DNA of 59,082 nucleotides, counting the filler, from Diploschistes diacapsis (Eukaryota): NCBI GenBank assembly GCA_023645945.1. It is 4 parts of 4 records of this genome, joined end to end, with 100 filler letters (N's around TTAATTAATTAA, not from the genome) between each part and the next. Parts side by side here need not be neighbours in the genome. Positions count along the whole stretch, not along the records: positions 41,095 to 50,039 come from JALAIB010001093.1; 3 more parts are not named here. One strand, 5' to 3'. Both the position numbers and the translations under genes were made by a program. Positions 10,273-46,118 of the stretch are shown piece by piece; the stretch's first letter is position 1; every line of letters starts with the position of its first letter. The notes beneath the pieces were generated by a model. The model was not told the origin of the DNA and ran no database searches. It worked only from the letters and a program-made list of their open reading frames with translations.

Positions 10273-11883
10273 CACGTTTCCTAGACAAGGCTTTGTAAGG
10301 ATTGATGTGCCTGTTCGGTTATGCCGAAAGATGACGGTTGTCAACTGCCTCTGCAGAACTTGACTTCCAAAGGGAGTTCAGGCCTAAACATTAAATCTCG
10401 ATTTTTAAGTGGCCGCTTCACGAAGTTTGGGCCACATCCCAACCAGGGCCTCCTGCTAATGACTTTGATTTGCAGGGGTATTGAAAAGTCGTTCAAGGTT
10501 CTGGGGAAATTCTGGATTACTTGTTGCGCAGCGAGGCGGGACAGACGCAGTGCGAATGCAGATAGAGGAAAGACAGCACATGGAAATATGGAGGGAGCAG
10601 ACTATATCAAGGAGTCTGTATGGAAGATAGACGGAGCGGAATGACTTGGGTTGCGCATTACCATTACCGCCACCATATTATTGCAATGGACGGGAACGAG
10701 AGGTGGTGGTGGTCCAGTTCAAATGGATTGGAACTTGAAGCATCTCAACACGCCAGACCAGACAAACCACAAACCCCACCGACGTCCGTGACGCCGAGTC
10801 AGGAGACAAGGGATTGATCAAGTTTGGCGATGTCGAGATCACATGACTTGGATTGGCTGAGAGAAGTTTCAAGTTCTTCGCTAGTTTCAGCCCTGTTAGG
10901 CTTGATGCCCATGTTTGAGAATATTACATGAACCAGCGATTGATCGGGCGGATTATCGGCGCCTTATAAGGCCGTTGGACTCCCATGTTTTAATGGTGTG
11001 TCTTTTTCAGCATCCCATTTCTGTTTCTACACCGAAGTCTGCTTCTTCCTCCCCATGCTTCTACCGTCCTGCAAAAATTGTCTAAGCATAACTACTGTCT
11101 AGCGAAAAGCTTGATCGCTACCCGCTCTGCGAGTGCCTGCGTTTTGCTGATGAGACCCAACCACTGACGCTTGTGTTGGTTTCCTTGTAAGACGTTGTTG
11201 GCTTTCACAGCAAAACACCATGTCAGCACAACCGGAACTCGCTTTTGTACTACAGACCTTGATAGCATCGACCGTGATGCCTTTGAAACAACCCTGTTTT
11301 CAATAATACCTCGAGTCTCATAGTTGAGCAAACTCGTTGCACCACTACACCAACCTGCAGATATTTCGACGTTTGCTGCATCACACGCTGCCTCATATCG
11401 ACAGATGACATTTTGCCTACATGCGCACATGTCTTTCCAGCTAGCTCTGTGTGTGTTGTGAAGCGGTAAGGAAGGCTTCATATCTCTCATGTTCTCACTT
11501 GTATCTAGGGTGCAGGTAAAGGCGCTTATTCAGTTAATCAAAGCCTGGATGCGAAGCTTGCTCATGTTTTTGTGTCTTAAGTTATGTGTAATGTTAAGGT
11601 GGCGGTCATTATTCCTCGAAGTGACACGATTTCCCCTGCCCCAACCTGCTGCAACTTCCACCAACCGAGCACTTAGCTTTCCGACCCGGTGTAGGGTCTC
11701 GATCGGGCAATGGTTAGATTTGTAGGTTGGTCTCATGTTGCACCCATTGTTTGTGATTCTGGATGCTGCGAACATATATAACAAAGCTCTACCTGCTTAG
11801 TTTTCTTTCTCAGTAGGACCGGCGCCTCGCTCACAGTACGCAACTTCATTTCTCTATTTCTAATATTAAGATTTTTATAATAT

Positions 11884-13788: not shown

Positions 13789-14816
13789 ACAGAGACGAAT
13801 TACATATCCAGTCTGCCGCTGTTAGTGCGAGCACCTTTTTCCCCATAACTTGGTGAAATAGGGGCTTCCCTCGCAAGTTACTTGGTAACACGTACTTCCT
13901 CTCGCTCCTAACAAGTGCCCCCAATGATGCCGTGCAAGTCGTGAAGATAGGAAGTTGGTTGGTAGTGAAGCCACCTCCAACAACGCGGCCGCTCCGGGCC
14001 CTGTCTCGAAAGATCCTGAGACCAGTCCGGTTCCCCCCCCCCCTTTTCCTTCCGGCGCGCTTTCGTGCCGTGCTAGATTGCTACACGGAATACGCCTCCC
14101 TCCCTCCATCAATCCATCCATCAAATGAGCGTTCGAGGCACACTGTACACTATAACCTTCATAGGTGCACCGTGCATCTAAGGAGGGAAAAGGACTACGC
14201 TACATGCTATGCCGCCGCATAGGTACTGTCTAAGTTTCGACGGAGTAAAGCATCACATTCCCGTGTGCACGACTGCACTATTAAGCTTCGATTAGAGTAG
14301 ATAATTCTCCATACCCGTACAGGTATGGGACCTAGTACCCAGCAAGCATGCAGGCGGCTCGACGAACCCCGCGAAATGGCAGCATAACTCTCGTACATGG
14401 CCAACAAGAAAGTAAAGTGCAAGCAGCTGCTAATGATACATGCTGTTTCGTTTCGTTTCTTTTTTTCCCCCACAGCTTTGCGCGAGTAAAGTTTGGCGTG
14501 GGGTTTTTATTTTGCTCTTTTTTTTCCGGGTTGCGCGTGTTTGGCTGAGTCCCGTCTCGTACCCGTCCCCTGCGCAAGGTTGTGGAGGCAAAGAGCAAAG
14601 TGACCGGCCGCTGGGTGGGAGCCTGGGTTGGGTTTCGTGAGGAGTAAATGGCCCAACCCCATAGCCTTTCCTGTAGCCGACCTTTCCGAACTTTCGTGCA
14701 TGTTTCCCTTGTTGCAGCTTTCCTTTCCGCCTTCCTTCCTAACTTCCACTAACCATCTCCCATTACCCGGCTTTTCCCCCCTTCCATCTCCGCCCTTCCC
14801 CTTCTCCCATTTCCAT

Positions 14817-16136
14817 TCAATCCACCGGCGGCGGCGCATCTGTCGGATCATATCCCACATACGGCCCCTGCATATCCTGGAACGACGACCCATCCAAACC
14901 CATAGCATGCATCTCCTGCATGTAAAGCTCCTCGCATTCCTCTTCAGCAAAGTAATCCTCCTCGTCCCACGAATCATACTCGTCCGAGAACCAACCCTCC
15001 TCCTCTTCGTCCTCCCAGAACTCGTCATCGGTGTGCACGTGCCCGCACCCACTGCACACGCGCGCCGAGCGCTGGTTGCACAGCAGCACCACCTCGTTCG
15101 GCGGCAGGTGGCACCCGCTAGCGAAACCGTGTGGGTACCAGCCGTTGCGGTGCGGGTCCGTGCACGTGGGCTCGTAGCCGTTGCCCATGACGCGCTTCAC
15201 TGCCTTGATCTCCTCTTCGAAGTGGCAGGAGAAGAAGGCCTGGAAGCTCTTCAGGCCCTTCTTCGGCCCGAGTTTGTACAAGGGTTTGACCATTTTGCGG
15301 TAGCATTCTTTCATCTCGCAGCAGTGATCGTCGATAAGGTGCTCAATGTTGAACTCGGATAGGATGTCGAGGTCGAGTGCGGCGTTGATGCAGAGGTCCA
15401 GCTTCGCGAGCCAGAGGTTGTCGCGCATGTATTTGGCGAGCTTGGCCCAGCCGCGGTACTGGGTGCCGGATTTTTTGTGCCAGTCGCGGCAGCCGTTGAG
15501 GGTTGGCTGCTTTTTGTCGACGAACATGAATTGAATATCGACCTGGCGGATTTTGCGGATGGCGGGCCCTTGGGCTTCGAGCCATGCGAGGATATGCTTA
15601 GGCTTCTGGGGCTCGAAGACCAGGCGGTTGCGAGAGAGGAGGGTTTCGAGTGCTTCGTCGTGGAAGAGCTTGTTCCTGACCGCGAGGATCGCGTTGGGCG
15701 TGTTGGTGCAGTCGCAGTCTGGTCCTTTGTTGAAGCGGCAGGTTGCTTCTCGAGCGGCTTTTTCGTCGGCATACTTGGTAGCGAAGAGGATTGCCGTGGC
15801 TGCAGAGCGGACGTTGCTCAGGATTTTTCCATCGCGGATTCGCACATCTGGCACGACATGGTGAGGGTGCTCGCGGACTACAAGCTCGGTGAACGATAAG
15901 ACGTGAAGTCGGAGTTCTTTAGGTAAATCGAACCAAGGAAATATTGGACCTTGTGCATGGGGAGCGGACTGATTTGTTGTAGAAGTTTCCTTGGAATTGC
16001 TTGACTCCGCAAAAGAGTCAGGCTTTTCCATATCGGCAGATTTCCCAGAGGCAGCCGTTTGCGATCTCGTGATCCTCTTCGATGTACTTGCAGCTGAGGC
16101 TTCTACTGTCTGTTTCCTCTTTCTCGCTGCAGGCAT
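14817..16136 (-). CDS. Hypothetical protein with an F-box-like/2EXR-like motif and a Cys/His-containing acidic C-terminus
   Basis: 439-aa ORF. FPWFDLPKELRLHVL resembles the fungal F-LP-E-R motif. C-terminal CSGCGHVH followed by a D/E/W/Y-rich tract. Confidence 0.65.
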   Translation of the reverse strand: MPAARKRKQTVEASAASTSKRITRSQTAASGKSADMEKPDSFAESSNSKETSTTNQSAPHAQGPIFPWFDLPKELRLHVLSFTELVVREHPHHVVPDVRIRDGKILSNVRSAATAILFATKYADEKAAREATCRFNKGPDCDCTNTPNAILAVRNKLFHDEALETLLSRNRLVFEPQKPKHILAWLEAQGPAIRKIRQVDIQFMFVDKKQPTLNGCRDWHKKSGTQYRGWAKLAKYMRDNLWLAKLDLCINAALDLDILSEFNIEHLIDDHCCEMKECYRKMVKPLYKLGPKKGLKSFQAFFSCHFEEEIKAVKRVMGNGYEPTCTDPHRNGWYPHGFASGCHLPPNEVVLLCNQRSARVCSGCGHVHTDDEFWEDEEEEGWFSDEYDSWDEEDYFAEEECEELYMQEMHAMGLDGSSFQDMQGPYVGYDPTDAPPPVD

Positions 16137-16955: not shown

Positions 16956-17567
16956 TCAAGGGCCACCACAGATGTAGTATACCAGATTTGCAGTCTGTCC
17001 GCAACCATGTGTGGCAGGGTTCTCCTCAGGAGAGTTGTAGGCCGCAGCGCAAGGTGACTCTCCGGGTTGACAGGCGAGTTGAGTGCATGTCTGATCATCC
17101 GGATGCAGTCCCTGATTGTAGGGCGCGAAAGGATCTCCGTTGACGAGCGAGAGGTCGTAGAAGACTTGAGCGCTGTCGAAGTTGACAGTGTACTCGAATT
17201 GAGCTATGTTGCTAGCATCTGTTGCAATATAAATTGAACTACAATCCACTGAAATCAGAATATCGTCCCGCTTACCTCCGCCGTTTACCTTGACGCTGAT
17301 TCCACCACCATCTTCTCTGGTTTGGTATGGTTCTGACCAAGTGCCGCCGTTTGCGGGGAGACCAATATTCATACCAGAGTCAACATCGGTCACTCTATCA
17401 AGCCAGACGTCGAAGCCGCAGTTGTTGATGACGGTAGTGGTGCCCACATCACGCTTGGCGACAAGGGAAGGGGTCGTAACGGTGGCGGTGTTGTCCGAGG
17501 GAAGAGGTGCTGAAAGAGAAATTGTTGCCATGAGAAGCGCGGCAGAAGCGAAAGTCGGAAAGTACAT
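16956..17567 (-). CDS. BYS1-like (thaumatin-fold-related) small secreted protein
   Basis: Signal peptide, pro-region ending VAKR, then VINNCGFDVWL, GGGISVK, QFEYT, FYDLSLVNGDPF and Cys-rich C-terminus (ATHGC..YICG). Probable 57-nt GT-AG intron at 17275-17219. Confidence 0.8.
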   Translation of the reverse strand: MYFPTFASAALLMATISLSAPLPSDNTATVTTPSLVAKRDVGTTTVINNCGFDVWLDRVTDVDSGMNIGLPANGGTWSEPYQTREDGGGISVKVNGGGKRDDILISVDCSSIYIATDASNIAQFEYTVNFDSAQVFYDLSLVNGDPFAPYNQGLHPDDQTCTQLACQPGESPCAAAYNSPEENPATHGCGQTANLVYYICGGP

Positions 17568-18677
17568 CGTAAGATTAGGGAGCATAGCACGAAAAGGGCT
17601 ATCTTTGGAGGGAGAACGCAGTTCTCTTTGCTAAGAACTGAAACGAAGATCTACCAGAAGGGAAAAAAGCACAGTTCTGCTGCGGAACGAATGTTTACAG
17701 CTCTGCTGCTAAGGGAAAAGAATGGACCTGGCCACAAACAGAAAGTACACAGCTCTGCTGGTGAAGGAATGGATACAGCACTGCTGTGAACGAAACAAAA
17801 AACCCTGGATGAACAGCAAAGGCAACTCAACTGGACGGAGAGATGGTCATTTATATACATAGCGGTAGTCAAAGACTGGCTGCAGTGGATTTAGAAAGGC
17901 TGTTGCAAAGGCGAGTGCAAAAACATAGCTCTCGCGAGCCTCAAAGCCAATGTGTTGGTTTCCAGAGCCGATTGATGTTATTCCGCTTACTACAAAACAT
18001 CGGCATTGCAGAATACAAAAGCTAATACGCAGCTCTGTTGCTGTATGGTTATGTTTTCACGTGGTTCAAGTAGTCCAGTAGATCGAGGATGCCACCATAG
18101 TTAACTTCAGCCATTCCCAGCTGACAGGCCCAATACAACCGGAATCCTCTTCTGTGAAACTGTGATAGACCAGCTGGAGCGAAGACTAGCAAGGCCATCT
18201 ATGCTAGTACGTCTCTTCTGTCCCGAATCGAGAAGAAACTTGTGCTCCAAAGAATGCCGTCCAGATGTTTGTTGGCATTAAAAAATAGCGAAATCCTTGT
18301 AGGTGAAGGCTGCTCTATGTCAATGGACGGCGAGCACAACTCCTGTGGACGAATTAGTGAAGCCACAAAGAGCATCACAGTATACTTGACGAATTGTAGG
18401 AATAGCAGTTGAGATGCCAGTGCTCTTGTCAGCACGCCTCTGAATTTCATTGTATTTATATTTACATAAGCAAACCCATCAGCCTTACCAACATTGAACC
18501 TTCAAGTTAGATTTCACGCACGGTAGAGGCAACCCAAGCTTCGTAGCTTGACCTCCTGCCTTCGCATAGGACGCGATTCATTATTACTCCTAGTATGACG
18601 CCCCTGATGCGAGTATTTTGATGCTTTACCAGCTTGTCATGTGACCCTTTGCCACAAGAGTATCACTTTGGCTCTTA

Positions 18678-20531: not shown

Positions 20532-21171
20532 AAGGGTGTTTGGCGCGTGAATCGATTTGTTTGCTAGTAGGCGCATTATGAGTAAGGCCTGTTTGCTAAT
20601 GTAAATTACTATGATACCCCATCTTGATGAACAATTCTTCTTCTCTAAAGCCCCTTGACTTCCATAGATTCTGAGTTGTTTTCTATCTTACAAAAGGGCT
20701 AGTTCAGCATCCTATCAACCACAAGTTACTACCAAATATGAGTACCGAAAATTGACCATGACAACTTTAGTATCTAACAAGCTAGGTACAACGATTCTCA
20801 AAGGGGACCCATGATAGATGTATTCAGGAGACTCGACCCGCTCTGAATAAATCAGTATTAGTTCTTGATCGGTGGGCCCATCATCCCCGAGGTCCTATTT
20901 AACACAGTGTTCATTACACGAGATCCTGCTTTGTCGTTTCAAGGAGATATGCCAGCAGTTAGAGCGAAGAAGTTGTTTTTCCTGTTTACCACTGACATCG
21001 GCTTCACTCAATACAGTAATTTGACCTGCCCTCATAGGCTTAAGCTTTTCGCTGTTTCCTCTCTGGGGACTCGTCATCACACTGCGGGTTTACGCTTAGT
21101 CCAAGGGGGCATATATATATATTCTGGTTAACACTGTTCTTTGTAAGGAACCAATTGCCTTTACAGACGAA

Positions 21172-21618
21172 GTGCCACAAAGCCTCGATCGAGCTGTCAT
21201 ACAACTTCTTCAGGAGGCTTGGACGCTCCTGGCCTGTACTCGTGGGAGGGATACAGATTCAGACTGTCTCGAGAATCTCAGGATGTCCAATGGAAGAGTT
21301 GAACAACACAGTGGATTAGTCGATGCCTGCTATCGTCGGTTGAACAGCGCTACTGGCTCTCTTGGACTCGCGAACCAGTCGATTGCAGGAATGACGCATA
21401 GGACACTGTGCCGATTCCTGCAATCTGAAGAGCTTCACTCTGTTGCTCAAGTGCAAATCGTCTGCCTCTCTTCATACAAGTATGTAACACTAGGAAGCAT
21501 CATGGATACCTTGGCCGTGGAAACACTTCATAGACCACGGAACAGATCAGGCTTGGACATTGTGCAAACCTTCACTTTCAAACCCGATATGGGAAGCGAC
21601 GGAGGGGATGAGGAATAA
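21172..21618 (+). pseudogene. Possible remnant of a NACHT/NLR-type (HET-associated) gene
   Basis: CYRRLNSATGSLG...MTHRTLCRFLQ resembles the RRLNS.C.GLLE...HRTV.DFL segment that follows fungal NACHT domains. Surrounded by stops, with no P-loop seen. Confidence 0.3.
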
Positions 21619-24600
21619 GTCGTAAGGCCTTTACAGCCACGTAGGAAGTGGCGATCAAGAACAACGAGTTCGAGAAAACTTCCAATAGCAATTCCCATAG
21701 CACCAGAAATGAGGAGTTTTCGCCTCGAGGCATCCAATACCCGCAAATAGCGCTAGCCGCCCTTCATATGGCAAAAACAGAAGATGAGAGGTTTTCCCAT
21801 CATATTTTTGATTTTTATCAGACCTTGGCCTTGGACCTGGACCCTGAGCTAGGGAGTCTCGCAGCTTAAGGTTAGCGACGAGGATAGACACGCTTGCCTC
21901 GGAATCTAATTGCATATGTTTCGCCAGAAGCGTGATTGAACCATGGCTTCGTCTTCAGGTACGACGACATAGAATTTGCCGGAAGGATATATATGGTATT
22001 CTGTTGCTTCCATGTACTATTCAGCATGGCGCATTCCAAGACCTGCATGGAGGAAGCGTTTTCGGTTACGCTTCGACAATGTCAGGATGCATACAAAAAC
22101 CTCACCTTCACAACCCGGGGTAGGTCTTTGGTCGTACTTGGATCATTGGATGCGTTGGAAGCTCTAAGGTTTGGGGATCGCACAGAAAAGTAGGGAGACC
22201 GGAAAATTTGGGGTTTATCATAGGTACAAGGTGATGATAAGAAAAAAGGACCTTCCTTTGCATATATCTCTACTTAATGTGCCGCAGCTTCAAGTCTTGT
22301 TCTGCAACTGGCAGCGTATATAATGAAGAGCTGGGTAGCAGGTTTGAGCGATACATAGGAGACCTTGCGAAAGCGGTTTTGGACGAGCGGCAATCGAATA
22401 AGGGAGAAAAGACTTCGAGATAGGCTCCTGGTTTGTGCTTGGACTTGTTACACACGCTAGTCAGACTTGGAAAATGTTATTGGCCAAGTCGTATACCTGG
22501 CGGAGGGAATCCGCGCGACTCGAGACTGTTATGGAAATGTCCTTAACTGGTTAAGCTTGTTCTGTTAGGCTCGCCATGAGAACAGCAGGTTTGGGAACAC
22601 TGGGCCCTCTTCTTCTGCCGTCTTTTGGATCTATTGGTAGGTGACTTCGCAAGCCAGACTGAGATCTTGAGGGAACAAGATGCATGTATCACCTTATCTG
22701 GTTCAGTGAGCGAGTGCCATTACGGCAAACACAGTTCCAGAAAATAGGCAGCACTGTATACAAATCGAGGTGGTACTAACAGAGGTGGATTTAGCCTGAT
22801 AAAGGATACATCAGAAATAGAGATGGTAGGACTGTTGCCATATCTAAGATCAGGTGAGATAGAATAAGAAAACAAAAGGTGGAAGAACTTCCTGGTCTAT
22901 TAAAGCATAGGGGAGCTCGAGCCTAGACAAGAAGTATCTAAGAACGGCTGGTAAAGCAGCAGAAGACAACAGAACAACGTGTTGTCTCTTTGGGCAGGAG
23001 ACTTGCAGATTTATGCGGGAGGTATTTACATAGGCCAAGGATAGGAGACCGTTAGACCAGGGAAATTAGACGCCATCCGGCGTCCGGGAAAAATCAACAG
23101 CCAAGGAAAAGATATTAGGAAAACGGCAGTCAACCTGGAACCTTTCATCTGGATTTGCATTAGTAGACTCTCGAAGTCACAAACAAAGGCCAGACTGGAG
23201 TCACCGCTCTCGGCCTTTTGCAACCTGCCGGAAGAGCAAGGCCGGGCACCGCTGGGTTCTGATTGTTATACAACCGCATATTTGTCCGAGGAGCTGAGAT
23301 GCTTGGAGTCTGTTTCAAGAGATCGCATACATCTAATAATAGGAGCCGACCAATCCTTCCCTGCTTGTTGTTCGGGTCCAAGTATGCCTTGGCCATGGCA
23401 AAATTTTTATAAAAGATATTTATAACGTACCACAGGCTAAAGATCGAGATAAAAGTAGGATGTGAGACCGAAAGAAGAGACAGAAGTAGGACTAGCAGTG
23501 ATGCGAAACTCTATGTGGAAGCCATAGCGATGAGCTCACCCAGTCAGGGAGAGCCTGTTTGGCTTTGCGCACTTTGATCCGCGGTTTGGGTAGAAGAGGT
23601 CCCAGTTCCAGTAAAAGTGAGAGCTTGTTCATAACACTAAATGTCCGAAGTTATAGCAACCTTGATCATTTATATAGTCAATCGGGGTTCGCTGCTCTTG
23701 CTTGCATGAGTCTGAAGATCGAGTTGAAAGAACGAAAGGGGTCAGAGGCAGCAAGCGTGTTTTGCTTGGACCATGCTGGAACTAGAACATGTAGTCGGGA
23801 GAAAGTCCTCTACTCAAGGCGGATCATGTAGATTTTCAATAATCGAGGTTATTATTGGTCTATTCGGCGGTTCAACGAACGTTAGCGGGAAGACATCACT
23901 ACAGTGACAGCACGTTTTTCTTGATGAGCTCGATCATCAACACTGGCAGGAAGTATAGCACTTTTATTGGATCAGAAACGATTAATGCCATCAACCGTTT
24001 TATTAACAGAATGATACATGGGAAAGAATTTCTCATGATCCGTGACACACTCAGGCCATGCCACGATACCCAACAAGTTCCGAAAGCCGGTCACAGCGCA
24101 GAGGTCTGCACTGCAAGACCGCCTTAGGGATACGGCAATCTGTTCGGAGAATAGAGATAGTGATGAAGAGATCAAACAACGACGATCTTAGGAATATAGT
24201 AGATCATTGGCTCCATGGTGGGAGCATCAATCACTAGCATTGACATCGACCACCGAGTGAAAAATAAACCACAACACCATAAAACAAAACTAGGAGACAA
24301 TGGCTGTGTAGAGATCTGAACGTTGCTTTTCCTCAGCTAAAATCCGTGGTAACCGTACATGGCTTCATCATTCCCAGGCGACTTTTGAGTATCAGCTTGA
24401 GTCTAAGAGAGTTGGAGAGACCTTTACAGTAGACGTTGGTTGTCTTAAGGAACTTTATTAGAAAGGGAGTGGTCTCGATATCGTGCCTGCGGCGATGAAC
24501 CTTTCACGCAAATGATGCCTGGCCGGCCAGCCAGGCCTACAACAACGGGGGCATGACTGAGACATCGGTACAATGTCGATATCAAGCCCAGCTCCCGATA

Positions 24601-27600
24601 GTATAGCCGAATGTACTGCGAGCACGAGCTCGCAGCAACGTAGAGTTGGGAGTTCGAAGACGGCTTGCTTGTCCGAGAGAGATACCGCTAGGTGCCCTCA
24701 GAGAATTCGTATGCGCTATGGCCAATAACGCTTTCAGGAAGCGGACCTACTGGTAAAGACCTTCGGGTTCGAGAGGTCGAACTTCCGAACAAAGAGGTTA
24801 GATTGGCAGGTCTGCGGGGATCCTGTGCGCTTACTCAAACCGGCCAGCTACTGAAAATTGGGAGAGCCCTCTCAGGGTCTCAGCTTGGCAAGCTGCGCTT
24901 TATCATATATGAACTCGCTTTTATAAAGAACCAGAACATATGACACGAATAGGCATCGTCTCTCCAGCATCTATTCGAGATCTTGGCATCATCTGGGTTC
25001 CGAACACCTTCCCGTTGATCTTAAGGCACTGGACGCGAAATCAAAGATATCAACTTTAGAATAAGAAGAGTACTTACAACAACCAATCTCGAGCATATAC
25101 ATATCTATCCTATAGGAGTGCACTAATGCTTTAAAATTACTGGCTCTAAGGGCAAAAGCTCCCTGTTCCCGCCATAGCTGGCACATATAACTTGGATCTT
25201 CCGACATACCTAGGACACCTAACAACTTTGTTTCTGGTGTGGAGTAGAGGCGTGGCCTGTTCGGTAGCGACTCCAAGGCTTTAGCTCAGAGCTGCAGAAT
25301 CACCTATCGAGAATAATAGATACCAAAAAATCTGTAGGTCGACCTCACTGGAATGGAGGACCCTGGCTCGAAATATACAATCAGCGCCTTTTCTAAAGAA
25401 GTTACAATTTGCACAGCTGAGCCGCCGCATATCTATGACAGCAGTGTAGGACCCTTCGGTCACAGTGCCGTGCCTTTGTGCGAACACGAAGCACTGAAAA
25501 AGATGTCAGGATATCCCATGTTAGCATCAGCCTCTAGCAGTGGACGCAAACACTTGTGCCTGATTATGAGTTGAGGCGTGGCCCGTTCGAGGATAATAAT
25601 CAATAGGCTTAACGACAGGCACACACTTGGACTAGCAGTAACTGGATCACAGACCAGTACAAAGGCAAGCTGAGGGTTTGAGCTGCGAGTAGTGTTGGGA
25701 GGTTAGCAATCTTGGAGCAGGAAAGTCTGCGATTGATCTTAATGGGCTGAATGCTACGTCCGAACTCCACTTTGAATCTGTTTACAAGATAGGCTGGAGA
25801 CCATGAGACTTACTGCTTTTTAGGAAACGTACATTCAGGAGCACGGTGTGCTGACCGAGCTTGGTGCGGTTAAGTAGAGAAAGCATCTAATAGAGTATTT
25901 GGGCATCTTTGTTGACGATTGCCTTTGGCACCAAAACATGGATCCACTTTCGTAAAATATATCTCGCACGATGCTGCAGCCTTCGTTGCTAAGGGCTTAC
26001 CACGAGCGCCTCCAGGCAGGAGAGGCGAACTCATCAGTGATGTATGAGTTGGCGCTCGCCGTTACTAATTAAGGCTCATAAGGAAAACGACAGGAGCTGC
26101 TTTTCGCTGCATTCGAGATTTATATGCAGCAGCCAAGACGCAGTCCTCGCGATTCACATCGTGCATATGGATAAGACCGGTTGTAGGAAAAGGCAGGAGG
26201 GGACGCAACAGAGCTCCGAGAGGAATTTAGGCCTAAAATTAATCAGAAGGGCCGCAGAAGAATGATCAAAAGAGCATGAGGAGCCTCATGCAGTGTACAT
26301 GAAATTGGATAGTACACCGTATTGGGCGTTGGCGCACGAGCCCTTGCCGTTCAGATGGGCATGCTAGGAATACGCCAATGAAACTGCCTCGACTGCAGGT
26401 ATTGCGGCATCCATAGGAAACTGAAGTAACAAGGAAAGAAGTTCACTGTTAATGGCAATCACTACAATATCCGGTCAAGTCTGATCAAATGCGAAGGCTT
26501 CCCGAAGCACACCTCAAGACTCAACATAAACATCCAGAGCCTGTGGGAATGCTCTATAATGCAGTATGGGACGATTCTATGCCTGGACCAACAGAGATGC
26601 CGGTCCGTAGGGGTAGCACAGGATACCGATTTCGTATATATAAGCCGACTCTCTTTTTTACTGATGGCTACTTAGCTCAGTACGAATTACTTGCGCAGTA
26701 CTACTATATACAGGAAATTCACCAGTGCATAAGGAACCGATGCCTAACAGTCCGGACTCCTGCCGTACAAGTAGAAAGCAAGGGCAGGTGTTTTCCTGGA
26801 AAAGTCGTTCCCGTGAGGTCTCCACCCAGAAATTGCAACAATTCCGCCAATCATGATATTAAGTACTCCTTTAGGGTATAAAAAGCATCAACACACCAAG
26901 GTAGTTATGCAGATCCTGCCAGGGAGATTATAATGTTTTGTTCGCTAGAATAATCAGAGTAAGGACCAAACAACGCTTTAGGAGGAGATCCGTCCTTCCA
27001 TACAGCATGGAAGATCCTCTAACAGTCTAGGAAAACCCTCGGACCTTCTTGCATGGGAGATAGGCAAGCCGGTTTAGGATACCGAGCACTGAGCGGAAAG
27101 TGAATACCTTACCAATGCCTACATCAACTACAAGGCGACGCGTGCAGCCGATACCAGGAAAGAGTTCCAAGGCTACAAAATCAGAGAGCAGTCTAGGAGT
27201 AAATCACGATGTGACGCAGTACAGGCTCTGTTAGAAAATCAAGGTTATCCAAATTCGGACACAAGGACTCACAAGTCAATTGGGCTGTTCACATGATACA
27301 ATAAAATGTATGGCTTCGTATCGGAGGGCCTGACCCTTGAAAATAACAAAGGAACGTTGGAGGTCGGAAGGATGTTGAAATCAATACCAGCATTTGGCGC
27401 GACGTTATGGTTGATACAATAAGCTTAAGAGAAGCGATCTTGGTATTCAGCTTTCTAAGCTTGCGGTGAAGGCTGGTCGCCCAGTTAGATGAATTATGGG
27501 AACGTAATCCAACTATCGTTGTTCTGAGTAGAGGACCATACAGTGAGGTTCCGACTTGTCTAGCTTGGAAACCCCGGATTATCGATTTTGGGTTGTTGAA

Positions 27601-28526
27601 TCAATAACAAGAGCGATCTAATCCTTTACACTCATCACCAATGGGACCTGGGAATGCTAGCTCAAGGAGCAGGTCGCGAACGCTCGAAATGATACGCAGG
27701 GCTATTAACATTGGAGATGTCACTCTTTAAACCCATTTTGAATTGGGTTACCGGACTAGGAAAAGGCACAGAAACTGGTTGATAAGCTAAAGGCCGACTC
27801 GGGAGGCTGTTCTACGGGAAATATAGGCTGAGTGTTCGAAAGCTTTCTAGAGAATTTCATAGCAGAGAGGATCTCCTCGTCACTTACGATGACCAGTTGA
27901 CGTAGAGAGAACGAACCGTGCTGCTATGCATCAACTTTCAGGCACTTATTCCGATGTTCTCCAGGTGTTCTTGATAAGGTTGTTGTACTTCACTTGTTTC
28001 TGTTTCTCTCCTCTTGGCTATTTCTGCTTCCTTCCCTTATTCTTTTACTTTCTATTGTTTCAGCTTTCTCCCCTAAGATCTGGACGGCATTTTAATCGGG
28101 GAAGCTCGACCTCGACCAGTTCCGGAGCCAGAAAATAAAATTGAAGCATCATGAATATGCCATATTAAAAGTACGCTGCCACATAAACCAATGTACAGAT
28201 AGATTGGAGGCCATCTTTCATTCGGTGCAAAACAGAAATGATTAAGTACTTGCGAGCAAAAGCGACAGCAGAAAAGTACTCAGAAAGGCCCTCTAACACC
28301 TCAACCGGTATCAAGGTTGAGAAAAACAAACAGAAAATATATGCTACCTAACACCCATGATGTTATATTATGCCGCATCTTTCCTGGGGGATACAAGTAT
28401 TTCCAGACCAGGTATGGCAGGCAGGAGCCGAGAACTTTCCTCCTTCCTCGCCGCACGCATCACGTACACAGCTAGATCAGATTGTGCAGGACGTGTCGCT
28501 TTCAGAAGGGGATACTCGGACCCTAG

Positions 28527-28626
28527 CGAAAACAGCGGTTGTTTCAAGATATAGGAGGTCTCCAAAAATACCGAAAACAGCGGTTATTTCAAAACATAGG
28601 AGGTCTCTAACACTACCGAAAACAAC
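28527..28626 (+). repeat. 45-bp tandem repeat, about 2.2 copies
   Basis: CGAAAACAGCGGTT(G/A)TTTCAA...ATAGGAGGTCTC starts at 28527 and 28572, with a partial copy CGAAAACAAC at 28617. Confidence 0.8.
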
Positions 28627-31600
28627 GTGGATGCAAACACAGGGCTAATTTGCATACACCATGTTTTCCAACCCAACTGTTCTGATAAAACCCAGAACGG
28701 GAAATGAGATACTCACTCCACATATTAAGAAGAGTGGAAAACAAGCCTCCAGTCGAAGGAGAGTGCTAGCGGGTTAAAAATAAAGTATTCACAGAAGAAA
28801 TTAGCCATACAGGGAATTGGCGGCAGCAGCACACAGGAAAGCAAGAGTATTACGGGCAGCCAAACTTCCTTTTGCTACGGAGCAAAACATCTGTGCTATA
28901 CCTGACGCTGCATGATATTTTATTTAGACCTCCGCACTATGACAGCGGAACTTCTATAACAAATGGCAAATGTATCCCCCGAGCTCGAGAGATAAACAAG
29001 GTATCAGTGAGGTTCAAGTACGGCTCAGGATGCCGTTAGTGGGTCGTTTACACCAACATCTGGGGCCAGTACGTTTACCAAATTCTGTACTTCGAGTATA
29101 CTGTGACTACACTGCGAAGCCTGGATAACGTTAGGAGAAACTGCCGTGGGTTTCAACCTGTCTGAGCACAGAATCCGTTGGACTGAAAATGTACATCTCT
29201 CCGCCATAGCCATAACGTGGTGGGATTTAGGGTGCCAGCCCACGGCAGTCACGATCTTCCAGGCTTCCCTCTCTTTTCCGTCTGTTTATTCTATACATCA
29301 ATCTAGACTAAATCAAGCTCGATCGGGTCTGGATCTCACCATGCTGCGTCGCTTAATCATTTAATAAAGGCCCATCTAGCATTCGATCTTAACGAAGCCG
29401 AGTTAAGGAACTTGAAAGTTTGAACGGAAGTATTAGGCGCTTCGGCATAGAACCCTATGACCTTTTCCAGATGAGGTATCGCTTGGGCAAGCGCCACCAA
29501 CAAATAAGATCTGGAACCCATCTTACGCGGCACCTATAAGGAGATTGGAGCAAGGCTCAAATGCTGGACAGGCCCCTTCACCCGGTTTCACGGACTTCGC
29601 CTACCAGAGAGATATTGAAGTTGCACGTCATTAATATCGTGACTTTGTGCAGAATCAGAAAGCACCTGGTGAATTCCGCGTTGTGGAGTTCAGGACAGAG
29701 AAACATAATTTATCGGCGAGGAATATTGTAGACGACACTATGGCCAACTACACAAGAGTTGAGTTGAGATGGGTCTCATAGGACATTTCCATACCCTTGC
29801 TTTGTGATATGGAAATCCTCCAAAAGGCCGCGTTGCGGTCGATAGGCAAAGACTTAACGGACTTATGACTCCAGGCTCTATACCTTCTCAGGGCGATTTT
29901 GGCAGGAAGCTTGCGATTCCACTGCATTACTTGGTAGGTTGCGATTGACTTTTCTAGCTATGGTAGCCACAGTTTGGATATCACCACAAGCACATAGCCG
30001 TAAAATGAGGAAATGGTTCATTATTATGCCACTCGAGACAAGGACCTGCGCTTCAAACGTCCCGGGCAAAGACGAACTTACCACGTTGGAATCTGAAGCA
30101 GTCGCTGCAAGTACTAAGCGTCCTATTCGGCTAGGCAGGAGCTAGGACAGAAGGTTTATGGTAAGAAGCCTACAGGGTCAGGTTCGCACGAAACTTGATG
30201 AACGAACTGGCTAAAGCACAGGCAAAAACTCCGAAAACCGGTAAGCTACAAGCCTTAGCGAGCTGGATAAAATGCGATTGTAGGTGTCAGACAACGCTGA
30301 AGACAGGCACAATCGCTGCTTTGTATGCCTGCCTCACGACTTTCAGCTATCTCAGAGACTCTGAGGCGTGAGAGGAGGAGTCAAAGCATACGTCCCTTGA
30401 AAGTCATGCTACAGCAGTTCAACGCTAGGCTGAGTCCGAGCATTGGAGTTCCACGAGCGCTCCTTGAATGAAAGAAAGCAGGATGAATGCTGTGTCTGTC
30501 GCGCCCTTCCAACCCGCCTCCCGAAACTACGGGATCTGCAGTCACAATTAACCGATCAGAGTCAGGGATCCCGAGTAAAACCGCTGTTGTTTGTTATCGC
30601 ACGTTCGTAATGGTGGATAAGGCACGAAACCAGCTGCTCTCCTCTGTCCCCATGTGTCCTAACCTCGCCGAGGCCAGGGTTCTTTGCACAGGGCCATGAT
30701 GCCGACGGTCGTCTAGGCTTACGCACGACGATATCGAAGATTAACAAAGACAGTTCTGCGATTAGGACATATCAAAAGAAACTTGGTAAATATATTCGAT
30801 TCTGCCCTGCATGTCAAAGCCAATAGGACGCCACGACACAAGCTTTATGGGTTCCTGCTGTGATATTACAAAGCGCCAGTTTAGTACCGCTAGGCCCACA
30901 TAGCCAAAAGACCAACAATACCGGATTGTGCCAGTATCGAACTAAACTGATATATATATATATATGCGAGACCACACTGCAACCCAATTCCTTCGTCTGC
31001 CAGGGTCATTGCATCAGGTACTATCACCACAGGCTTCATTCCGGCTCTGCCTACGACTGTAGATAACCAGGGCACCACCCTGTCCTCGCCGACAAATCAT
31101 ACCAAGGCAATATCTCGATCGGTATAAAAAGCTGGAAACCCGGACCAGGCGAACCCAGCGTGCAGTGGCAAAGTGGCAGCGGGCTGGTCCCCACACCCAC
31201 CTACGCGCACAAACATACCATGTGTGCTTCCCCAAAAGTAGGAACGGGAAAGTTGTTCCCCTGAGCTCGAACCGGTTTTTGCACCAATCCGGGATACCAG
31301 AGCAGATGTTGTACTTGCTACCGAAACCCACGCTAACCCGTCGGGAAACGGGATAGCTTGTGACTTGCCCCCCTTACCAGCAAACCTGGAAAGGTAAACG
31401 CAGGCGTGGGCGTGGATGGTCACGGAGACATGCTACATGCTGCTTATATATCTCTCTCAAGGGAATTAACCGTCAGGATACTTTTTATTTTATTTTATGG
31501 GGGAGGGGTGTCTCGATAAGCGACTTCCTCCCCCAAAAGAAATCACGGCGTCTCGTGGGGTTCAACGACAGGCGAGTTGCCCGAGGCGTTATTGAGGCAG

Positions 31601-31939: not shown

Positions 31940-32039
31940 NNNNNNNNNNNNNNNNNNNNNNNNNNNNNNNNNNNNNNNNNNNNTTAATTAATTAANNNNN
32001 NNNNNNNNNNNNNNNNNNNNNNNNNNNNNNNNNNNNNNN
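31940..32039. other. Artificial contig linker (44N-TTAATTAATTAA-44N)
   Basis: Exactly 100 nt with a six-frame stop core, repeated identically three times in the window. Confidence 0.98.
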
Positions 32040-39369: not shown

Positions 39370-40994
39370 ATGGACCTTACCTTGCAGTATCCCATGGCCT
39401 CGCCTAGAGAGCTTAAGGAGCTTTTCGTTGGCAAGAAACTTACTGGACTGCCTACCCCCATAGCTGTAGTCGACCGCCACATCGCTGCTGCTAATTGTAA
39501 GAAGATGTTAGATGCTTGCCGAGATCTCAATGTTCTGTTCAGGCCCCATATCAAAACTCACAAGGTATTTTGAAGTCAATGATAAATAGCGTTTGGGTCG
39601 TTCTCGATCGTTGTCCTTCTGGTTGTTTTCTTAGCCCATTCTAATGATCGCCAAGTCTGTAGAAGTGACCAAGCTTCAAATTGGCGAAAACCTCAAACAT
39701 GTCAATCTTGTTGTCTCTACAGTTGGCGAAGCCGAACTCCTGAAAGACTACCTCCTCGAATGCAAAGATCAAGGAAAAACCGTCAATGTGAGTTCGAAGC
39801 CTTCCTCCGCCGTCTCCGGTTGCGCCATCTGACAGCGGGAAAGGTGCTCTTCGGCCTTCCCCTACCACCATCCTACATTGACCGTCTGGGAAAATTAGGA
39901 AAAGTTCTCGGTGCAGGTAGCATAAACTTGCTCATCGACAACCCCAGCCAACTCAATGCCCTTCCCAAATTTCGAGATATCGCCGGTTTCGGCCCATACA
40001 TAACCTTCAAAATCGACACCGGCTACCACCGCGCCGGCCTTCCACCCACCGAACACGACCTCTCCGATATCGTCAAGAAGTCAATCTCTGCCGAGAACTC
40101 CGGCCTCTGCAAGATCCACGGCGTCTATTCCCACTCCGGGCACAGCTACGCCGCCACATCGCCGGAAGAAGGCATGTCCTACCTCCTTGAAGAAATCCAG
40201 CGCCTAAGCGACGGCGCCCTTATCGTCAAAGACCTACTCGCCGAAGAAAAAGAACCCCGACGGATGATTATCTCCGTCGGCGCCACACCCTCCTCTTCTT
40301 CCGTACTCCACCTCCTTGGGCCCTCCACGCCACACAACCAATCCCCCACTGCCCAGAAGCTGCGTGAGACCCTTAAAGGAGTCCTCGACAAGGGCCTATT
40401 CGTGGAGCTCCACGCGGGGAATTACCCGTTCCTCGACATGCAGCAGCTGCACACCCAAGCTGCCACCTCCGCCTTTTCACCCGCCTCAGACTCGCCAAAC
40501 GAAAAGGCAAACGCAAACCCCCCCATCGGCACAAGGGACATCGCCTTCTCCCTCCTCGCCGAGGTCGCAAGTATCTACCCAAACCGGCAGCCCCCGCAGG
40601 CTCTCATCGCCGCCGGCTGCCTCGCGCTGGGCCGCGAGCCGTGTCCCGGCTACGCGGGCTGGGGCATGCTGAGCGACTGGAACCTCTCGGCTAACACGAA
40701 CGATCAACAGCCGAAATACTCGGGCTGGGAGGTCGAAAAGGTGAGTCAGGAGCACGGCATAATACAAGCCAGCGATGGCACCACGATACAGAAAATTGTG
40801 GAGGAGAGGGGCGGGAAGATGGAGGGGCTGGCGAAGATGCCGTTTGAGGTGGGGCAGAAGGTCAGGATCTGGCCGAATCATGCGTGTGTTGCGGCGGCAG
40901 GGTTTGGGTTCTATATTGTTGTCGATAGTTCTGGGGAGGAAGGAGGAAAGGGTGCGGGGGAGGAGGTGGTGGATGTTTGGGTTAGGTGCAGGGG
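39370..40994 (+). CDS. DSD1: D-serine dehydratase (fold-type III PLP enzyme, alanine-racemase-like N-terminal domain), ends at the contig edge
   Basis: LPTPIAVVD, FRPHIKTHK (PLP lysine), KIDTGYHRAG, YSHSGHSY, ISVGATP, ELHAGNY, SQEHG, IWPNHAC (metal His/Cys). Introns near 39565-39655 and 39788-39843. The stop codon is lost in the linker. Confidence 0.88.
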
Positions 40995-41094
40995 NNNNNN
41001 NNNNNNNNNNNNNNNNNNNNNNNNNNNNNNNNNNNNNNTTAATTAATTAANNNNNNNNNNNNNNNNNNNNNNNNNNNNNNNNNNNNNNNNNNNN
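40995..41094. other. Artificial contig linker
   Basis: 44N-TTAATTAATTAA-44N. Confidence 0.98.
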
Positions 41095-42267: not shown

Positions 42268-43834
42268 CTACAAGATATCCTGTGTTTGCTCAATCTGATT
42301 CTCGACCCGTATCTGCCCCATGGCCGGCGGGCTGCGAATGTGAACTTCCCCCTCTGACAGCGAACCAGTGCCTGCTGCCGTTGAATGCGTCTCGATGACT
42401 GCTGCCCTAGGCAGATCTGATATCATGGGTATCTCGTCGTGCATGTACCACTTACCGTCATTTATCTGCGGATGCCCCCTCTGGACCGCTGTCTTGTTAA
42501 CCTGGTCCGTCGTACCGAGGTTCGAGAAGGGCCATCTACCGCGGTAGGCGTACAGCCGTTTCTTTGTGAAGATGGAGCTGCTCCTGGGTTTTGACGATCG
42601 GGTGCTCGAGATAATGCGTTTGAATGCGTCCTTGAAGACGAAGTAGAAGGATGGCAAGCAGGCAGCGGTCAGAGCCAGGCCGGACTCAATAGTTGCCCAA
42701 TATACGCCGGTGGTGGGAATGGCTGTGCAAAAAGCGTGTTGGTCAGTCTAAGTATCTTCCGTGGTTTCGTCTCATCTAAGCTCACTGTCATTTGCGCCAG
42801 AAGAAGCGTAGTCCAACTTAAGAGCTACCACTGCTTGTACGAAGATAATCATTCGTGTTATGGAGGCTGCCACGGTGCTTTTCTCGGCGTTAGAATGGCT
42901 GCGGCAGCGAGGGAGGCTCGAGACTTACAGCCCACCAAGTGAAAGGATCGTAGCAACAGCCACCTTTCGGCCAAAAGACATACTGAGACGAGCGACCTAA
43001 GACGGATCCATAAGCTTCAATCTGGAGTGTTCCAGACCTACTTAAGGGATCAGTAGCGGGAAGGATGAGTCTCACCATGAAAACAGGCACAACGAGGATC
43101 ACTAAGTCCATGGCGGTGTCTGAGACTGCGAATGCTGCCTCAACGGCAAGGGAAGATTTGCAGTACGTGTCAAGTGTCTCAATGTCCGTCCACCACGCGG
43201 AGATATGCCCGTTACACTCAGTCAAGAGGGCAATGAAAAAAACAAGCCCCCATAAGCTCGTAATCACGATCAGAGTGAGGGTAAGGTAACGAAAACGTTG
43301 GTTCTGACCAGTGTAGAAAATTCGAAGGTAGAAGAACAAGCAGCTCATTTTCGTACATGCTAATGCTGGGCACTGAAGTAGTTCGATAGTCCATACCACC
43401 TTGGCAATTAGCAACAGAAAGATTTAGTTCCCGGACCGGATTACAAACAATCTTAGTCGTTGTAATGTCAAAATTCTGAAAAGTTAATGGATCCTGGCCA
43501 TTTGGAGACTCTGGAGTTGGGTAACCCAGCGCTTGGGTCACAGACCCTGAAGGTCGATGTCAGCATTGGAATGCCTGTAGCAATAGAATACTTACCATAT
43601 ATCATAGCAGCACATACGCCAAGCGTACCAAGCTGCGATATTTAGAGACATCTCTCATGAACTGATTGTACTTACAAGAGCTGGAATCGTCAACCAGTCG
43701 TCGGCTTGCAGGTTCGTCCGTTGATAACGTCGCACGACAAAGCGTAGGATAACAACGGCGGTACAAGCGGGAGCCCAAACGACCCCGACAGCGAATACTT
43801 CGTCGGCGGTTGGAGGCGCAACTAGTTCAGTCAT
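42268..43834 (-). CDS. PTH11-like (fungal rhodopsin domain) integral membrane protein / putative GPCR, multi-exon
   Basis: AVVILRFVVR..ADDWLTIPA, CTKMSCLFFYLRIF, SDTAMDLVILVVP and YWATIESGLALTAACLP are typical PTH11-family segments, spread over several short exons. No CFEM domain seen. Confidence 0.85.
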
Positions 43835-45077: not shown

Positions 45078-45404
45078 CTAGCGCGCATTCAGGACTGGTG
45101 GGTCGCTTTTCTCTCGCGCATTCAGTACTGGTGGATCGCTTTTCTCTCGCGCATTGAGGACTGGGGGATCGTTTTTCTCTCGCGCATTGAGCACCGGAGG
45201 GTCGTCTTTCTCGCGGGCATTGAGCACCGGAGGGTCGTCTTTCTCGCGGGCATTTAGTACTGGCACGTCTCCCTTGATGCGGGCGTTCAGCACCGGCGGA
45301 TCGGTCCTGATATAGCTGCGACTGATGACGTTGGTGATTGGTGCAGGCGAGGCGAGAGCAGCGACGACAAGTAGCCCAACGGTGAGAAGGGTAGGAGGAT
45401 GCAT
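45078..45404 (-). CDS. Putative RiPP precursor (UstA-like/KEP repeat protein): signal peptide plus 7 x 11-aa repeats xxxD(P/V)PVLNAR
   Basis: 31-aa leader (hydrophobic LLTVGLLVVAALA-SP) followed by IRTDPPVLNAR, IKGDVPVLNAR, EKDDPPVLNAR x2, EKNDPPVLNAR and EKSDPPVLNAR x2, then a stop. Divergently adjacent to a DUF3328 gene. Confidence 0.88.
   Translation of the reverse strand: MHPPTLLTVGLLVVAALASPAPITNVISRSYIRTDPPVLNARIKGDVPVLNAREKDDPPVLNAREKDDPPVLNAREKNDPPVLNAREKSDPPVLNAREKSDPPVLNAR
45081..45311 (-). repeat. 33-bp coding tandem repeat, 7 copies
   Basis: Seven contiguous 33-nt units, for example GAG AAA GAC GAC CCT CCG GTG CTC AAT GCC CGC on the minus strand. Confidence 0.97.
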
Positions 45405-45470
45405 TATGACTATGCTAAGTAGTGGTGGATGGTTTTTTTCGCAGTTGGGCTAAGATTGAGAGAGGGCATC

Positions 45471-45499
45471 AGTTATATATCAACAAAGTTATATATCAA
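45471..45499 (-). promoter_or_regulatory. Duplicated TATA-like element upstream of the precursor gene
   Basis: AGTTATATATCAA occurs at 45471-45483 and 45487-45499 (minus strand TTGATATATAACT), 67-95 nt upstream of the precursor ATG. Confidence 0.5.
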
Positions 45500-46118
45500 G
45501 AACCCCTCCTAAAAGTTAAACATTAATATACGCAGCTCTGGAATGACCAAGTCTTGATCAGGTGGGCTGACGATTCCAGGTTTCATCCATTCAGATCTCG
45601 ATGAAGATGCTATGCTGTTCATAGAAGGTTGATGGTGTTTATTGGGGGCATGAAAGGCAAACTCTCACATGTTCTCTACCAACCAGTAGAAAGTGCATAC
45701 AACGCGCAAGATCGAGGCTACACCACCTTCAGCTCAACTCTTCATGCACACAGCACTATCACAACAGCAAGGTTAAGTACATAGACGAAGCATCATTCTG
45801 GTTTTCCCTTTCTCGTGCAGTAGTCTATTGATCAACAGCTGTGGGTGGCATTATTTTCCGTCTTAATGAGTGGTTCTTTTTTTCTTGCAGCCATCAAGTA
45901 CGATCGAACGATGATGATGTGAAAGCCAATAGAAATGAATAAGAAAATAGAATAAGAGGGATGAAGTTCATTGTGCCGCAATATGTAGGATCTTTGATCC
46001 TTCACCCCCCTTTCCCCCCAAGAGCTTTTCGATCAGAACTTGATCTCCCATACTTCATACCTCCCGAATTTGGCTCGTTCTCTCCCCCTTGAACTCATGA
46101 TCATCTTGAAAAGCAGCC

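What the first reader, a model, noticed from the sequence alone, without database searches (positions are those of the whole stretch)
45081..45311. Atypical repeat cores: no aromatic residue or Cys, and monobasic LNAR junctions instead of KR/RR
Seen: none of the seven repeats contains Tyr, Trp, Phe, His or Cys. There is no KR or RR anywhere in the precursor. Every unit, including the last, ends in L-N-A-R. Established: ustiloxin, phomopsin and asperipin are macrocyclised through Tyr ethers and released by Kex2 at dibasic sites; L-x-A-R is a common pro-peptide ending in fungal secreted proteins. Inference: processing occurs after AR (kexin-type monobasic cleavage) with further trimming of EK(D/N/S). 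The chemistry must target aliphatic or amide residues (Pro-Pro, Val, Leu, Asn, Asp). Screens that require KR sites would miss this precursor.
Basis: partly seen in the sequence, partly recalled or inferred. Interest (0 to 1): 0.78.

Follow-up and report, generated by a model that had tools for sequence, protein, structure and literature searches.

The report
Aromatic-free fungal peptide precursor cassette
A lichen-associated fungus carries a small secreted protein made of seven copies of a short peptide. It sits in a conserved four-gene block with a copper oxidase-type enzyme, a transporter and a receptor-like membrane protein, and probably yields a modified peptide of a type that standard genome screens miss.

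Summary
The ORF at 45078-45404 (-) encodes 108 aa with a hydrophobic N-terminus and seven units ending L-N-A-R. The units have no Y/W/F/H/C, and the protein has no KR/RR/KK/RK.

It belongs to a family (34 precursors examined) with a D-P-P-V-L-N-A core. Arg follows 71 of 72 internal units, but 27 of 34 precursors stop without it, so Arg is the cleavage signal. LxxR is a published Kex2 site.

The precursor lies head-to-head with an intact UstYa/DUF3328 gene. It is flanked by a fungal rhodopsin-domain (PTH11-like) gene and an MFS gene. This order recurs in two related lineages, and the precursor-UstYa pair has consecutive accessions in Lophiostoma.

Best reading: a dikaritin-like RiPP cassette whose copper enzyme oxidises aliphatic C-H bonds in a kexin-released, aromatic-free core. 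Each oddity has precedent on its own. I found no description of this family or cassette in nine literature searches, and 0 of 34 members pass a dibasic screen. Cleavage, product and receptor role are inferred, not shown.

The parts
45078..45404 (-). Intronless 108-aa multicore precursor gene
   Evidence: ORF; no Pfam family; family of homologs
45351..45404 (-). Predicted signal peptide, about residues 1-18; the cut site is inferred
   Evidence: 9-residue Kyte-Doolittle means up to 3.0 over residues 5-17; no SignalP available; homologs share a hydrophobic N-terminus
45081..45311 (-). Seven units ending L-N-A-R, with core D-[PV]-P-V-L-N-A. Core+Arg at 45279-45302, 45246-45269, 45213-45236, 45180-45203, 45147-45170, 45114-45137, 45081-45104
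   Evidence: synonymous excess
45405..46118 (.). 714-bp intergenic region between the divergent precursor and UstYa genes; a shared promoter is inferred
   Evidence: head-to-head arrangement conserved in L052-L055
46119..47120 (+). UstYa/DUF3328 gene, three exons (introns about 46330-46372 and 46609-46748, about 272 aa), with an N-terminal hydrophobic segment (residues 33-51) and two HxxHC motifs (46591-46605, 46812-46826)
   Evidence: PF11807 on exons 2 and 3, E 6.6e-5 and 3.6e-11; gene model; motifs; 49-56% identity to seven homologs
42268..43834 (-). Fungal rhodopsin-domain (PTH11-like) membrane protein gene; exon borders not fully resolved
   Evidence: PF20684, E 9e-16; start and stop; syntenic in L052-L055; best own-genome match of the L053 gene
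47388..48940 (-). MFS transporter gene
   Evidence: PF07690; syntenic in L052-L055; best own-genome match of the L053 gene

Best explanation
A four-gene, dikaritin-like RiPP cassette. Shown: gene content, conserved gene order, a constrained D-P-P-V-L-N-A core, and Arg kept between units but usually absent after the last. Inferred: (1) The precursor enters the ER. (2) The housekeeping kexin cuts after L-N-A-R, using the core's own Leu as P4, and Kex1 removes the Arg, so the peptide ends in V-L-N-A. (3) The membrane-anchored luminal dicopper DUF3328 enzyme oxidises an unactivated C-H in the core. Hydroxylation or desaturation of Pro/Val/Asp/Leu is most likely; a cross-link to the Asp or Asn side chain or the N-terminus is possible. 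(4) The variable 2-4-residue spacer serves as a recognition element and/or is trimmed back to Asp-Pro. (5) The MFS protein moves the product, and the rhodopsin-domain protein is an accessory or sensor.
For: Arg follows 71 of 72 internal units; 27 of 34 precursors end without it, in 13 of 17 leader-sequence groups, with real stop codons confirmed for L052-L054. The own genome uses aliphatic-x-x-Arg junctions in other UstYa-linked repeat proteins, and on C348 VAGR alternates with VTRR and VTKR in register. One kexin P-domain match was found, in an intact subtilase ORF. LxxR cleavage by Kex2 is published, and products ending at single Arg were seen for KEPs. The UstYa partner is conserved: same four-gene order in L052-L055; consecutive accessions KAF2659358.1 and KAF2659357.1 in Lophiostoma; three more precursor-UstYa pairs share a longest-contig length (2,004,918; 376,301; 9,107). 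Both HxxHC motifs are intact. DUF3328 chemistry on aliphatic residues has precedent.
Against: No expression, cleavage or product data. P2 is A/G/V/S/T in all 75 Arg junctions, none of them among the top P2 residues named in PMC8528282, so kexin cleavage may be slow. The core lacks the aromatic residue through which ustiloxin, phomopsin, asperipin-2a, epichloecyclin and victorin are closed. DUF3328 enzymes also act on non-ribosomal substrates. Rhodopsin-domain genes also lie within 5 kb of a P450 match on 12 of 75 P450 contigs, so they may be generic cluster companions. Independent loci with all four genes number only three (the window and two lineages; L054 = L055, L052 about 95% identical to L053). 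Shared contig length is indirect evidence of linkage.
Confidence: 0.62

Rival explanations
1. Same cassette, different processing: another protease (yapsin-like or trypsin-like at single Arg, or an Asn-specific cut) releases the core. The product ends at Asn (D-P-P-V-L-N), with the small residue plus Arg as a follower.
For: The residue after Asn varies (A 82, G 10, V 8, S 4, T 1 of 106 units), while V-L-N is nearly fixed, and P0008 ends at V-L-N. P2 is never basic. That yapsins cut at single basic residues is recalled, not from a call.
Against: 26 of the 27 Arg-less termini keep the residue after Asn, which fits removal of Arg alone. No peptidase gene was seen on contig C106 or among the sequences shared with L052-L055. 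P4 Leu fits the kexin motif.
Confidence: 0.15
2. A linear, unmodified signalling peptide (pheromone-like) read by the neighbouring rhodopsin-domain receptor. The UstYa gene acts on another substrate or is a passenger.
For: The receptor-like gene is adjacent and syntenic and groups with the relatives' copies in a quick tree (SH-aLRT 93). No aromatic handle exists for known cyclisation. An alpha-factor cluster was the third Atlas hit at a weak 0.82.
Against: The UstYa ortholog is the immediate head-to-head neighbour in the window, in L052-L055, and by accession in Lophiostoma, with intact metal ligands. There is no Ste13 XA/XP pattern after the junctions. [quoted passage not shown]
Confidence: 0.15
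3. The protein is secreted whole as a small repetitive structural, surface or wall protein.
For: It has a signal-like N-terminus, Pro-rich repeats and no canonical dibasic site.
Against: The copy number varies from 2 to 8. The systematic loss of the last Arg makes sense only if Arg is a cut site. There is no Cys, no hydrophobic C-terminal tail, and Ser+Thr is only 8%. The link to UstYa is conserved.
Confidence: 0.05

Closest known systems
Asperipin-2a- and epichloecyclin-type clusters (multicore precursor with a single DUF3328 enzyme, AprY or GigB)
   Same: Signal peptide, tandem cores, one adjacent DUF3328 gene, few other genes; epichloecyclin precursors use LXKR sites.
   Different: Those cores are closed through Tyr and released at dibasic sites. 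Here there is no aromatic residue and P2 is never basic. No reductase, methyltransferase or cluster kexin was seen on the 8.9-kb contig; a rhodopsin-domain gene is conserved instead.
Phomopsin DUF3328 desaturases PhomYc/Yd/Ye; victorin
   Same: DUF3328 action on Ile, Asp and Pro in ribosomal cores; victorin is closed between Phe and Leu and chlorinated.
   Different: These clusters have several DUF3328 genes, and the cores still carry an aromatic residue that forms the ring. I could not place this enzyme in a tree with them, because their sequences were not retrieved.
CctR, ApnU (copper-dependent DUF3328 C(sp3)-H hydroxylase and halogenase)
   Same: N-terminal membrane helix, luminal domain, HxxHC(x)nHxxHC motif.
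   Different: CctR acts on a non-ribosomal peptide; no ribosomal precursor is involved.
KEX2-processed repeat proteins (KEPs) and K2PP effectors with LxxR sites
   Same: Signal peptide with repeats (KEP); Leu at P4 and Arg at P1 (K2PP).
   Different: KEP screens require KR/KK/RK/RR. In the K2PP passages read, LxxR marks a single pro-domain cut, not every repeat junction.

Membership tests
KEP (KEX2-processed repeat protein) | ER signal peptide | tested here: met
   Hydropathy only; SignalP not available
KEP (KEX2-processed repeat protein) | Three or more tandem repeats of 8 aa or more | tested here: met
   Seven units
KEP (KEX2-processed repeat protein) | Repeats separated by KR/KK/RK/RR | tested here: not met
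   None in the window protein; 0 of 34 family members pass
KEP (KEX2-processed repeat protein) | Actual cleavage by kexin | not testable with these tools
   Comparative support only
Dikaritin RiPP | Clustered DUF3328/UstYa gene with two HxxHC motifs | tested here: met
   conserved adjacency
Dikaritin RiPP | Multicore secretory precursor | tested here: met
Dikaritin RiPP | Macrocycle through an aromatic (Tyr/Phe) side chain | tested here: not met
   No aromatic residue in the core in 33 of 34 precursors; P0013 is the exception
Dikaritin RiPP | Product is a post-translationally modified peptide | not testable with these tools
   Needs expression and LC-MS/NMR
Dikaritin RiPP (ustiloxin/phomopsin type) | Tyrosinase, methyltransferase and several DUF3328 genes in the cluster | tested here: inconclusive
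   Not seen among long ORFs of contig C106, but the contig is only 8,945 bp
K2PP-type extended Kex2 site | Leu or aliphatic residue at P4 and Arg at P1 | tested here: met
   LNAR at all seven junctions; motif
Alpha-type pheromone precursor | Dibasic site followed by XA/XP Ste13 dipeptides | tested here: not met
   Junctions are followed by EK-D/N/S or IK-G; definition
PTH11-like GPCR as cognate receptor | Binds the peptide and signals | not testable with these tools
   Only domain identity and linkage

The most novel reading that the evidence does not exclude
The founding member of a family of fungal RiPPs with no aromatic residue, found in a lichen-associated fungus and in a Dothideomycete, with matching enzymes in Lecanoromycetes and Leotiomycetes. 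A single DUF3328 enzyme closes or oxidises a purely aliphatic/amide core (for example a C-H to Asn-N or Asp-O cross-link), and the cassette encodes its own PTH11-like receptor. That would be a self-contained peptide signal-receptor module, the first ligand candidate for a UstYa-linked branch of these orphan receptors, and a sign of a hidden LxxR-processed pool of fungal RiPP precursors.
Probability: 0.18. Interest if true: 0.88.

Novelty: new variant of a known kind. Interest (0 to 1): 0.6.

Why it matters
The fungal peptide screens read here demand dibasic sites, and a lichen survey reported DUF3328 clusters with no identifiable precursor. This family shows one way precursors drop out: 0 of 34 pass that filter, and at least two further UstYa-linked repeat proteins in the same genome have only monobasic junctions. 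A two-gene minimum (108-aa precursor and one enzyme) is a simple test of what a DUF3328 copper enzyme does to a ribosomal core with no aromatic residue. The linkage of rhodopsin-domain genes to UstYa loci gives a testable ligand hypothesis for a large orphan receptor-like family.

Tried and rejected
- Pfam found nothing for the precursor. PDB sequence search with a UstYa homolog gave 0 hits at E<=1.
- The ESM Atlas gave only weak hits (best 0.86, low recognition); not used as support.
- The AlphaFold2 model of homolog P0039 (9 sequences) had mean pLDDT 45, so no fold search was run and the model is not used.
- No complex prediction was run: no full-length reference for the spliced receptor-like protein was available.
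- No RNA holder was listed. Runs X2 and X3 laid nothing. Neither blank is evidence on expression or absence.
- No second copy of the precursor in the own genome.
- 15 of 29 hits were dropped by eye as unrelated repeat proteins; P0025 (signal-like N-terminus, D-P-T-V-V-T-A-R units) was borderline and was among them. L056 and L057 have no intact precursor, and L055 duplicates L054; all three were left out of counts.
- The adh_short control scored only 18 of 174 candidates and was not used.
- Motif search of the literature returned 2 irrelevant papers. The supplements of PMC7329392 gave 0 hits, but the visible head row of Table S2 shows accessions and labels rather than sequences, so this blank says little.
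- Earlier scan notes had nothing by place or sequence.
- Rejected: assembly artefact (homologs, synonymous variation); antisense or other-frame coding (only the signal-bearing frame is conserved); Ste13 trimming (no XA/XP series).

Full report
OBSERVATION. The stretch is the C-terminal part of an intronless 108-aa ORF at 45078-45404 (-). It has a hydrophobic N-terminus and seven units ending L-N-A-R, the last directly before the stop. No KR, RR, KK or RK occurs, and no Y/W/F/H/C lies in any core. Among the seven cores, 98 pairwise codon differences are synonymous and 6 non-synonymous (168 comparisons); against the cores of L054 the figures are 250 and 8 of 392. The repeat is therefore a constrained peptide. 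The lack of aromatic residues and Cys is weak on its own, since a random 11-mer lacks them about one time in four.

SETTING. The window is a scaffold joined by N runs. The gene lies on the 8,945-bp contig C106. The one run that holds the DNA is labelled lichen metagenome and may be its source. Pfam and gene models give four genes on the contig: a fungal rhodopsin-domain gene (42268-43834, -), the precursor, a UstYa/DUF3328 gene 714 bp away head-to-head (46119-47120, +; two introns; HHLHC and HALHC motifs) and an MFS gene (47388-48940, -).

FAMILY. Three searches, cluster look-ups and a metagenome scan gave 34 precursors with the window's own. I kept 14 of 29 hits, all 24, three cluster members and three locus ORFs. 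A permissive pattern found 106 units, with D 97, P 104, P 83, V 105, L 104, N 98 (Q 8), then A 82, G 10, V 8, S 4, T 1. These frequencies are inflated by the pattern, and degenerate units were not counted. The core is aromatic-free in 33 of 34 proteins, though some spacers carry aromatic residues or Cys. The 2-4 residues before the Asp vary but lean to E/G, then K/I/L, then A.

THE ARG IS THE PROCESSING SIGNAL. Arg follows 71 of 72 internal units. At the C-terminus, 27 of 34 precursors stop without it (26 after the small residue, 1 after Asn), 3 keep it, and 4 are truncated, run on or are divergent. Many members are close relatives; grouped by leader sequence, 13 of 17 groups lack the last Arg and 2 keep it. 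Real stop codons were checked only for the window and L052-L054. This pattern is what is expected if an endoprotease cuts after Arg and a carboxypeptidase removes it. P2 is never Lys or Arg (0 of 75). LxxR is described as an extended Kex2 site with variable P2 (PMC8528282, first third of the text read; bioRxiv 2020.05.27.120113, passages), although Ala is not among the favoured P2 residues named. Products ending at single Arg were seen when KEPs were expressed in Pichia (PMC9769878, passages). The genome has one kexin P-domain match in an intact subtilase ORF. Of eight other repeat proteins examined near UstYa genes in this genome, two have only aliphatic-x-x-Arg junctions (C291, C65), one mixes VAGR with VTRR and VTKR in register (C348), and five have dibasic sites. 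None of the 34 family members passes the dibasic criterion of PMC7329392 (passages; test).

THE CASSETTE IS CONSERVED. Loci L052-L055 (two lineages about 70% alike in DNA; L054 = L055, L052 about 95% identical to L053) show the same four genes in the same order and orientation. Their rhodopsin-domain and MFS genes find C106 as best of 25 and 19 own-genome matches, and UstYa homolog P0039 does so among 29. In Lophiostoma macrostomum the precursor homolog and the UstYa homolog have consecutive accessions. Three more pairs share a longest-contig length, which is indirect. Close UstYa homologs also occur in a Phaeosphaeriaceae species, Clarireedia jacksonii and Gyalolechia gomerana, where I could not look for precursors. 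An FAD-linked oxidase-like gene and a second MFS gene flank the cassette in L053/L054 but have no match on C106 (named from their sequence by recall).

MECHANISM. DUF3328 proteins are membrane-anchored, luminal, dimeric copper enzymes that act on inert C(sp3)-H bonds (PMC12435403, first third and passages). In phomopsin, three of them form dehydro-Ile, dehydro-Asp and dehydro-Pro (PMC10880069, passages). Victorin is closed between Phe and Leu (PMC9233826, passages), and epichloecyclin through Tyr (PMC10540207, passages). Only 65.6% of repeats near DUF3328 genes contain Tyr; the abundant Tyr-free types carry di-His or Trp (PMC7329392, section 7). Action on Pro, Val, Asp or Leu thus has precedent, whereas I found no characterised case of a core with no aromatic residue at all. 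The most likely product is an oxidised D-P-P-V-L-N-A peptide, possibly with a short N-terminal extension. Trimming that stops at Asp-Pro follows from recalled aminopeptidase behaviour and was not tested. Whether the product is a ring cannot be decided from sequence.

THE RECEPTOR-LIKE GENE. In this genome 11 of 27 UstYa contigs have a PF20684 match within 5 kb, against 12 of 75 P450 contigs (Fisher p 0.014; 0.053 for whole contigs) and 5-8% expected at random. The lists are partial: 150 of 241 and 92 of 163 candidates were scored. In a quick tree of one exon (78 rows, 111 columns, many forks open), the window's protein joins the three relatives (SH-aLRT 93), and 7 of 12 UstYa-linked against 8 of 63 other own-genome rows fall on one branch (support 92; p 0.0015). 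This is a lead, not proof. These genes are also enriched beside P450s, and their presence in metabolite clusters (SAT4 family) is recalled. In Fusarium a non-pheromone GPCR has a proteinaceous ligand, but deleting six KEP genes singly did not reproduce its loss (PMC10589705, passages). An unchecked earlier scan note describes an analogous repeat-peptide and membrane-protein module; it is not independent support.

NOVELTY. Nine literature searches found no description of this core, family or cassette. The library lacks most subscription papers, and I did not see the primary papers on AprY, ApnU, PhomY or victorin. The lichen RiPP survey looked for precursors by Kex2 sites, found no repeated cores in its two clans, and has no occurrence of 'rhodopsin', 'GPCR' or 'receptor' (PMC12048977, passages). 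PMC6339444 (passages) defines KEX2 sites as KR, RR or KK. PMC10840396 (passages) was read and not used. The locus works like a dikaritin or KEP system but fails two defining tests: dibasic sites and an aromatic ring-forming residue. I file it as a new variant of a known kind, interest 0.6.

Noticed in passing
G000 C291 (L033, - strand, about 6140-6400) and C65 (L063, - strand, about 2525-2880): Two more repeat proteins near UstYa genes with only monobasic junctions (IANR/IVNR with DA-type dipeptide runs; LASR). Their cores carry Trp or Phe. A dibasic screen would miss them too.
   Followed up: partly
G000 C348 (L059:4740-4973, +): A three-unit secreted precursor beside the closest UstYa paralog; its junctions alternate VAGR, VTRR and VTKR in register, and the core contains Trp.
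   Followed up: partly
G000 C3821 (L034), C3848 (L037), C160 (L038), C1890 (L061), C2835 (L041): Repeat precursors with dibasic sites near UstYa genes, with Tyr, Trp, Phe or Cys in the units. The genome has 46 UstYa exon matches on 27 contigs.
   Followed up: partly
Own genome, 12 contigs including C106, C160, C3751, C2835, C3841, C3848, C4353: Rhodopsin-domain (PF20684) genes lie within 7 kb of UstYa genes on 12 of 27 UstYa contigs, and 7 of these fall on one weakly supported branch.
   Followed up: partly
L046:1987-2620 (G000 C4240): A long array of 15-bp, 5-residue repeats, open in several frames, about 1 kb from a UstYa gene; the coding frame is undetermined.
   Followed up: no
L053:3747-5407 and 14182-15571; L054 equivalents; L053:16782-20148: In the relatives the cassette is flanked by an FAD-linked oxidase-like gene and a second MFS gene; L053 also has a polyketide synthase-like ORF nearby (names recalled from sequence). 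None matches contig C106.
   Followed up: no
window 11881-13785 (+) and 16959-17630 (-): A secreted aspartyl protease with a long Asp/Lys-rich C-terminal extension, and a Bys1-domain protein, both on contig C102, about 30 kb from the cassette.
   Followed up: no
window 31940-32039, 40995-41094, 50040-50139: Scaffold gaps. The D-serine dehydratase-like ORF (39760-40994) runs into one, so genes beyond the gaps are not proven neighbours of the cassette.
   Followed up: partly
window about 21000-31000, with a 45-bp tandem repeat at 28527-28624: A lower-GC stretch with few long ORFs, possibly a degraded repeat region.
   Followed up: no
P0025, P0013: More distant secreted repeat proteins with related units (D-P-T-V-V-T-A-R; D-P-Y-V-I-N-A without Arg) that may be outlying family members; their gene context is unknown.
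   Followed up: no
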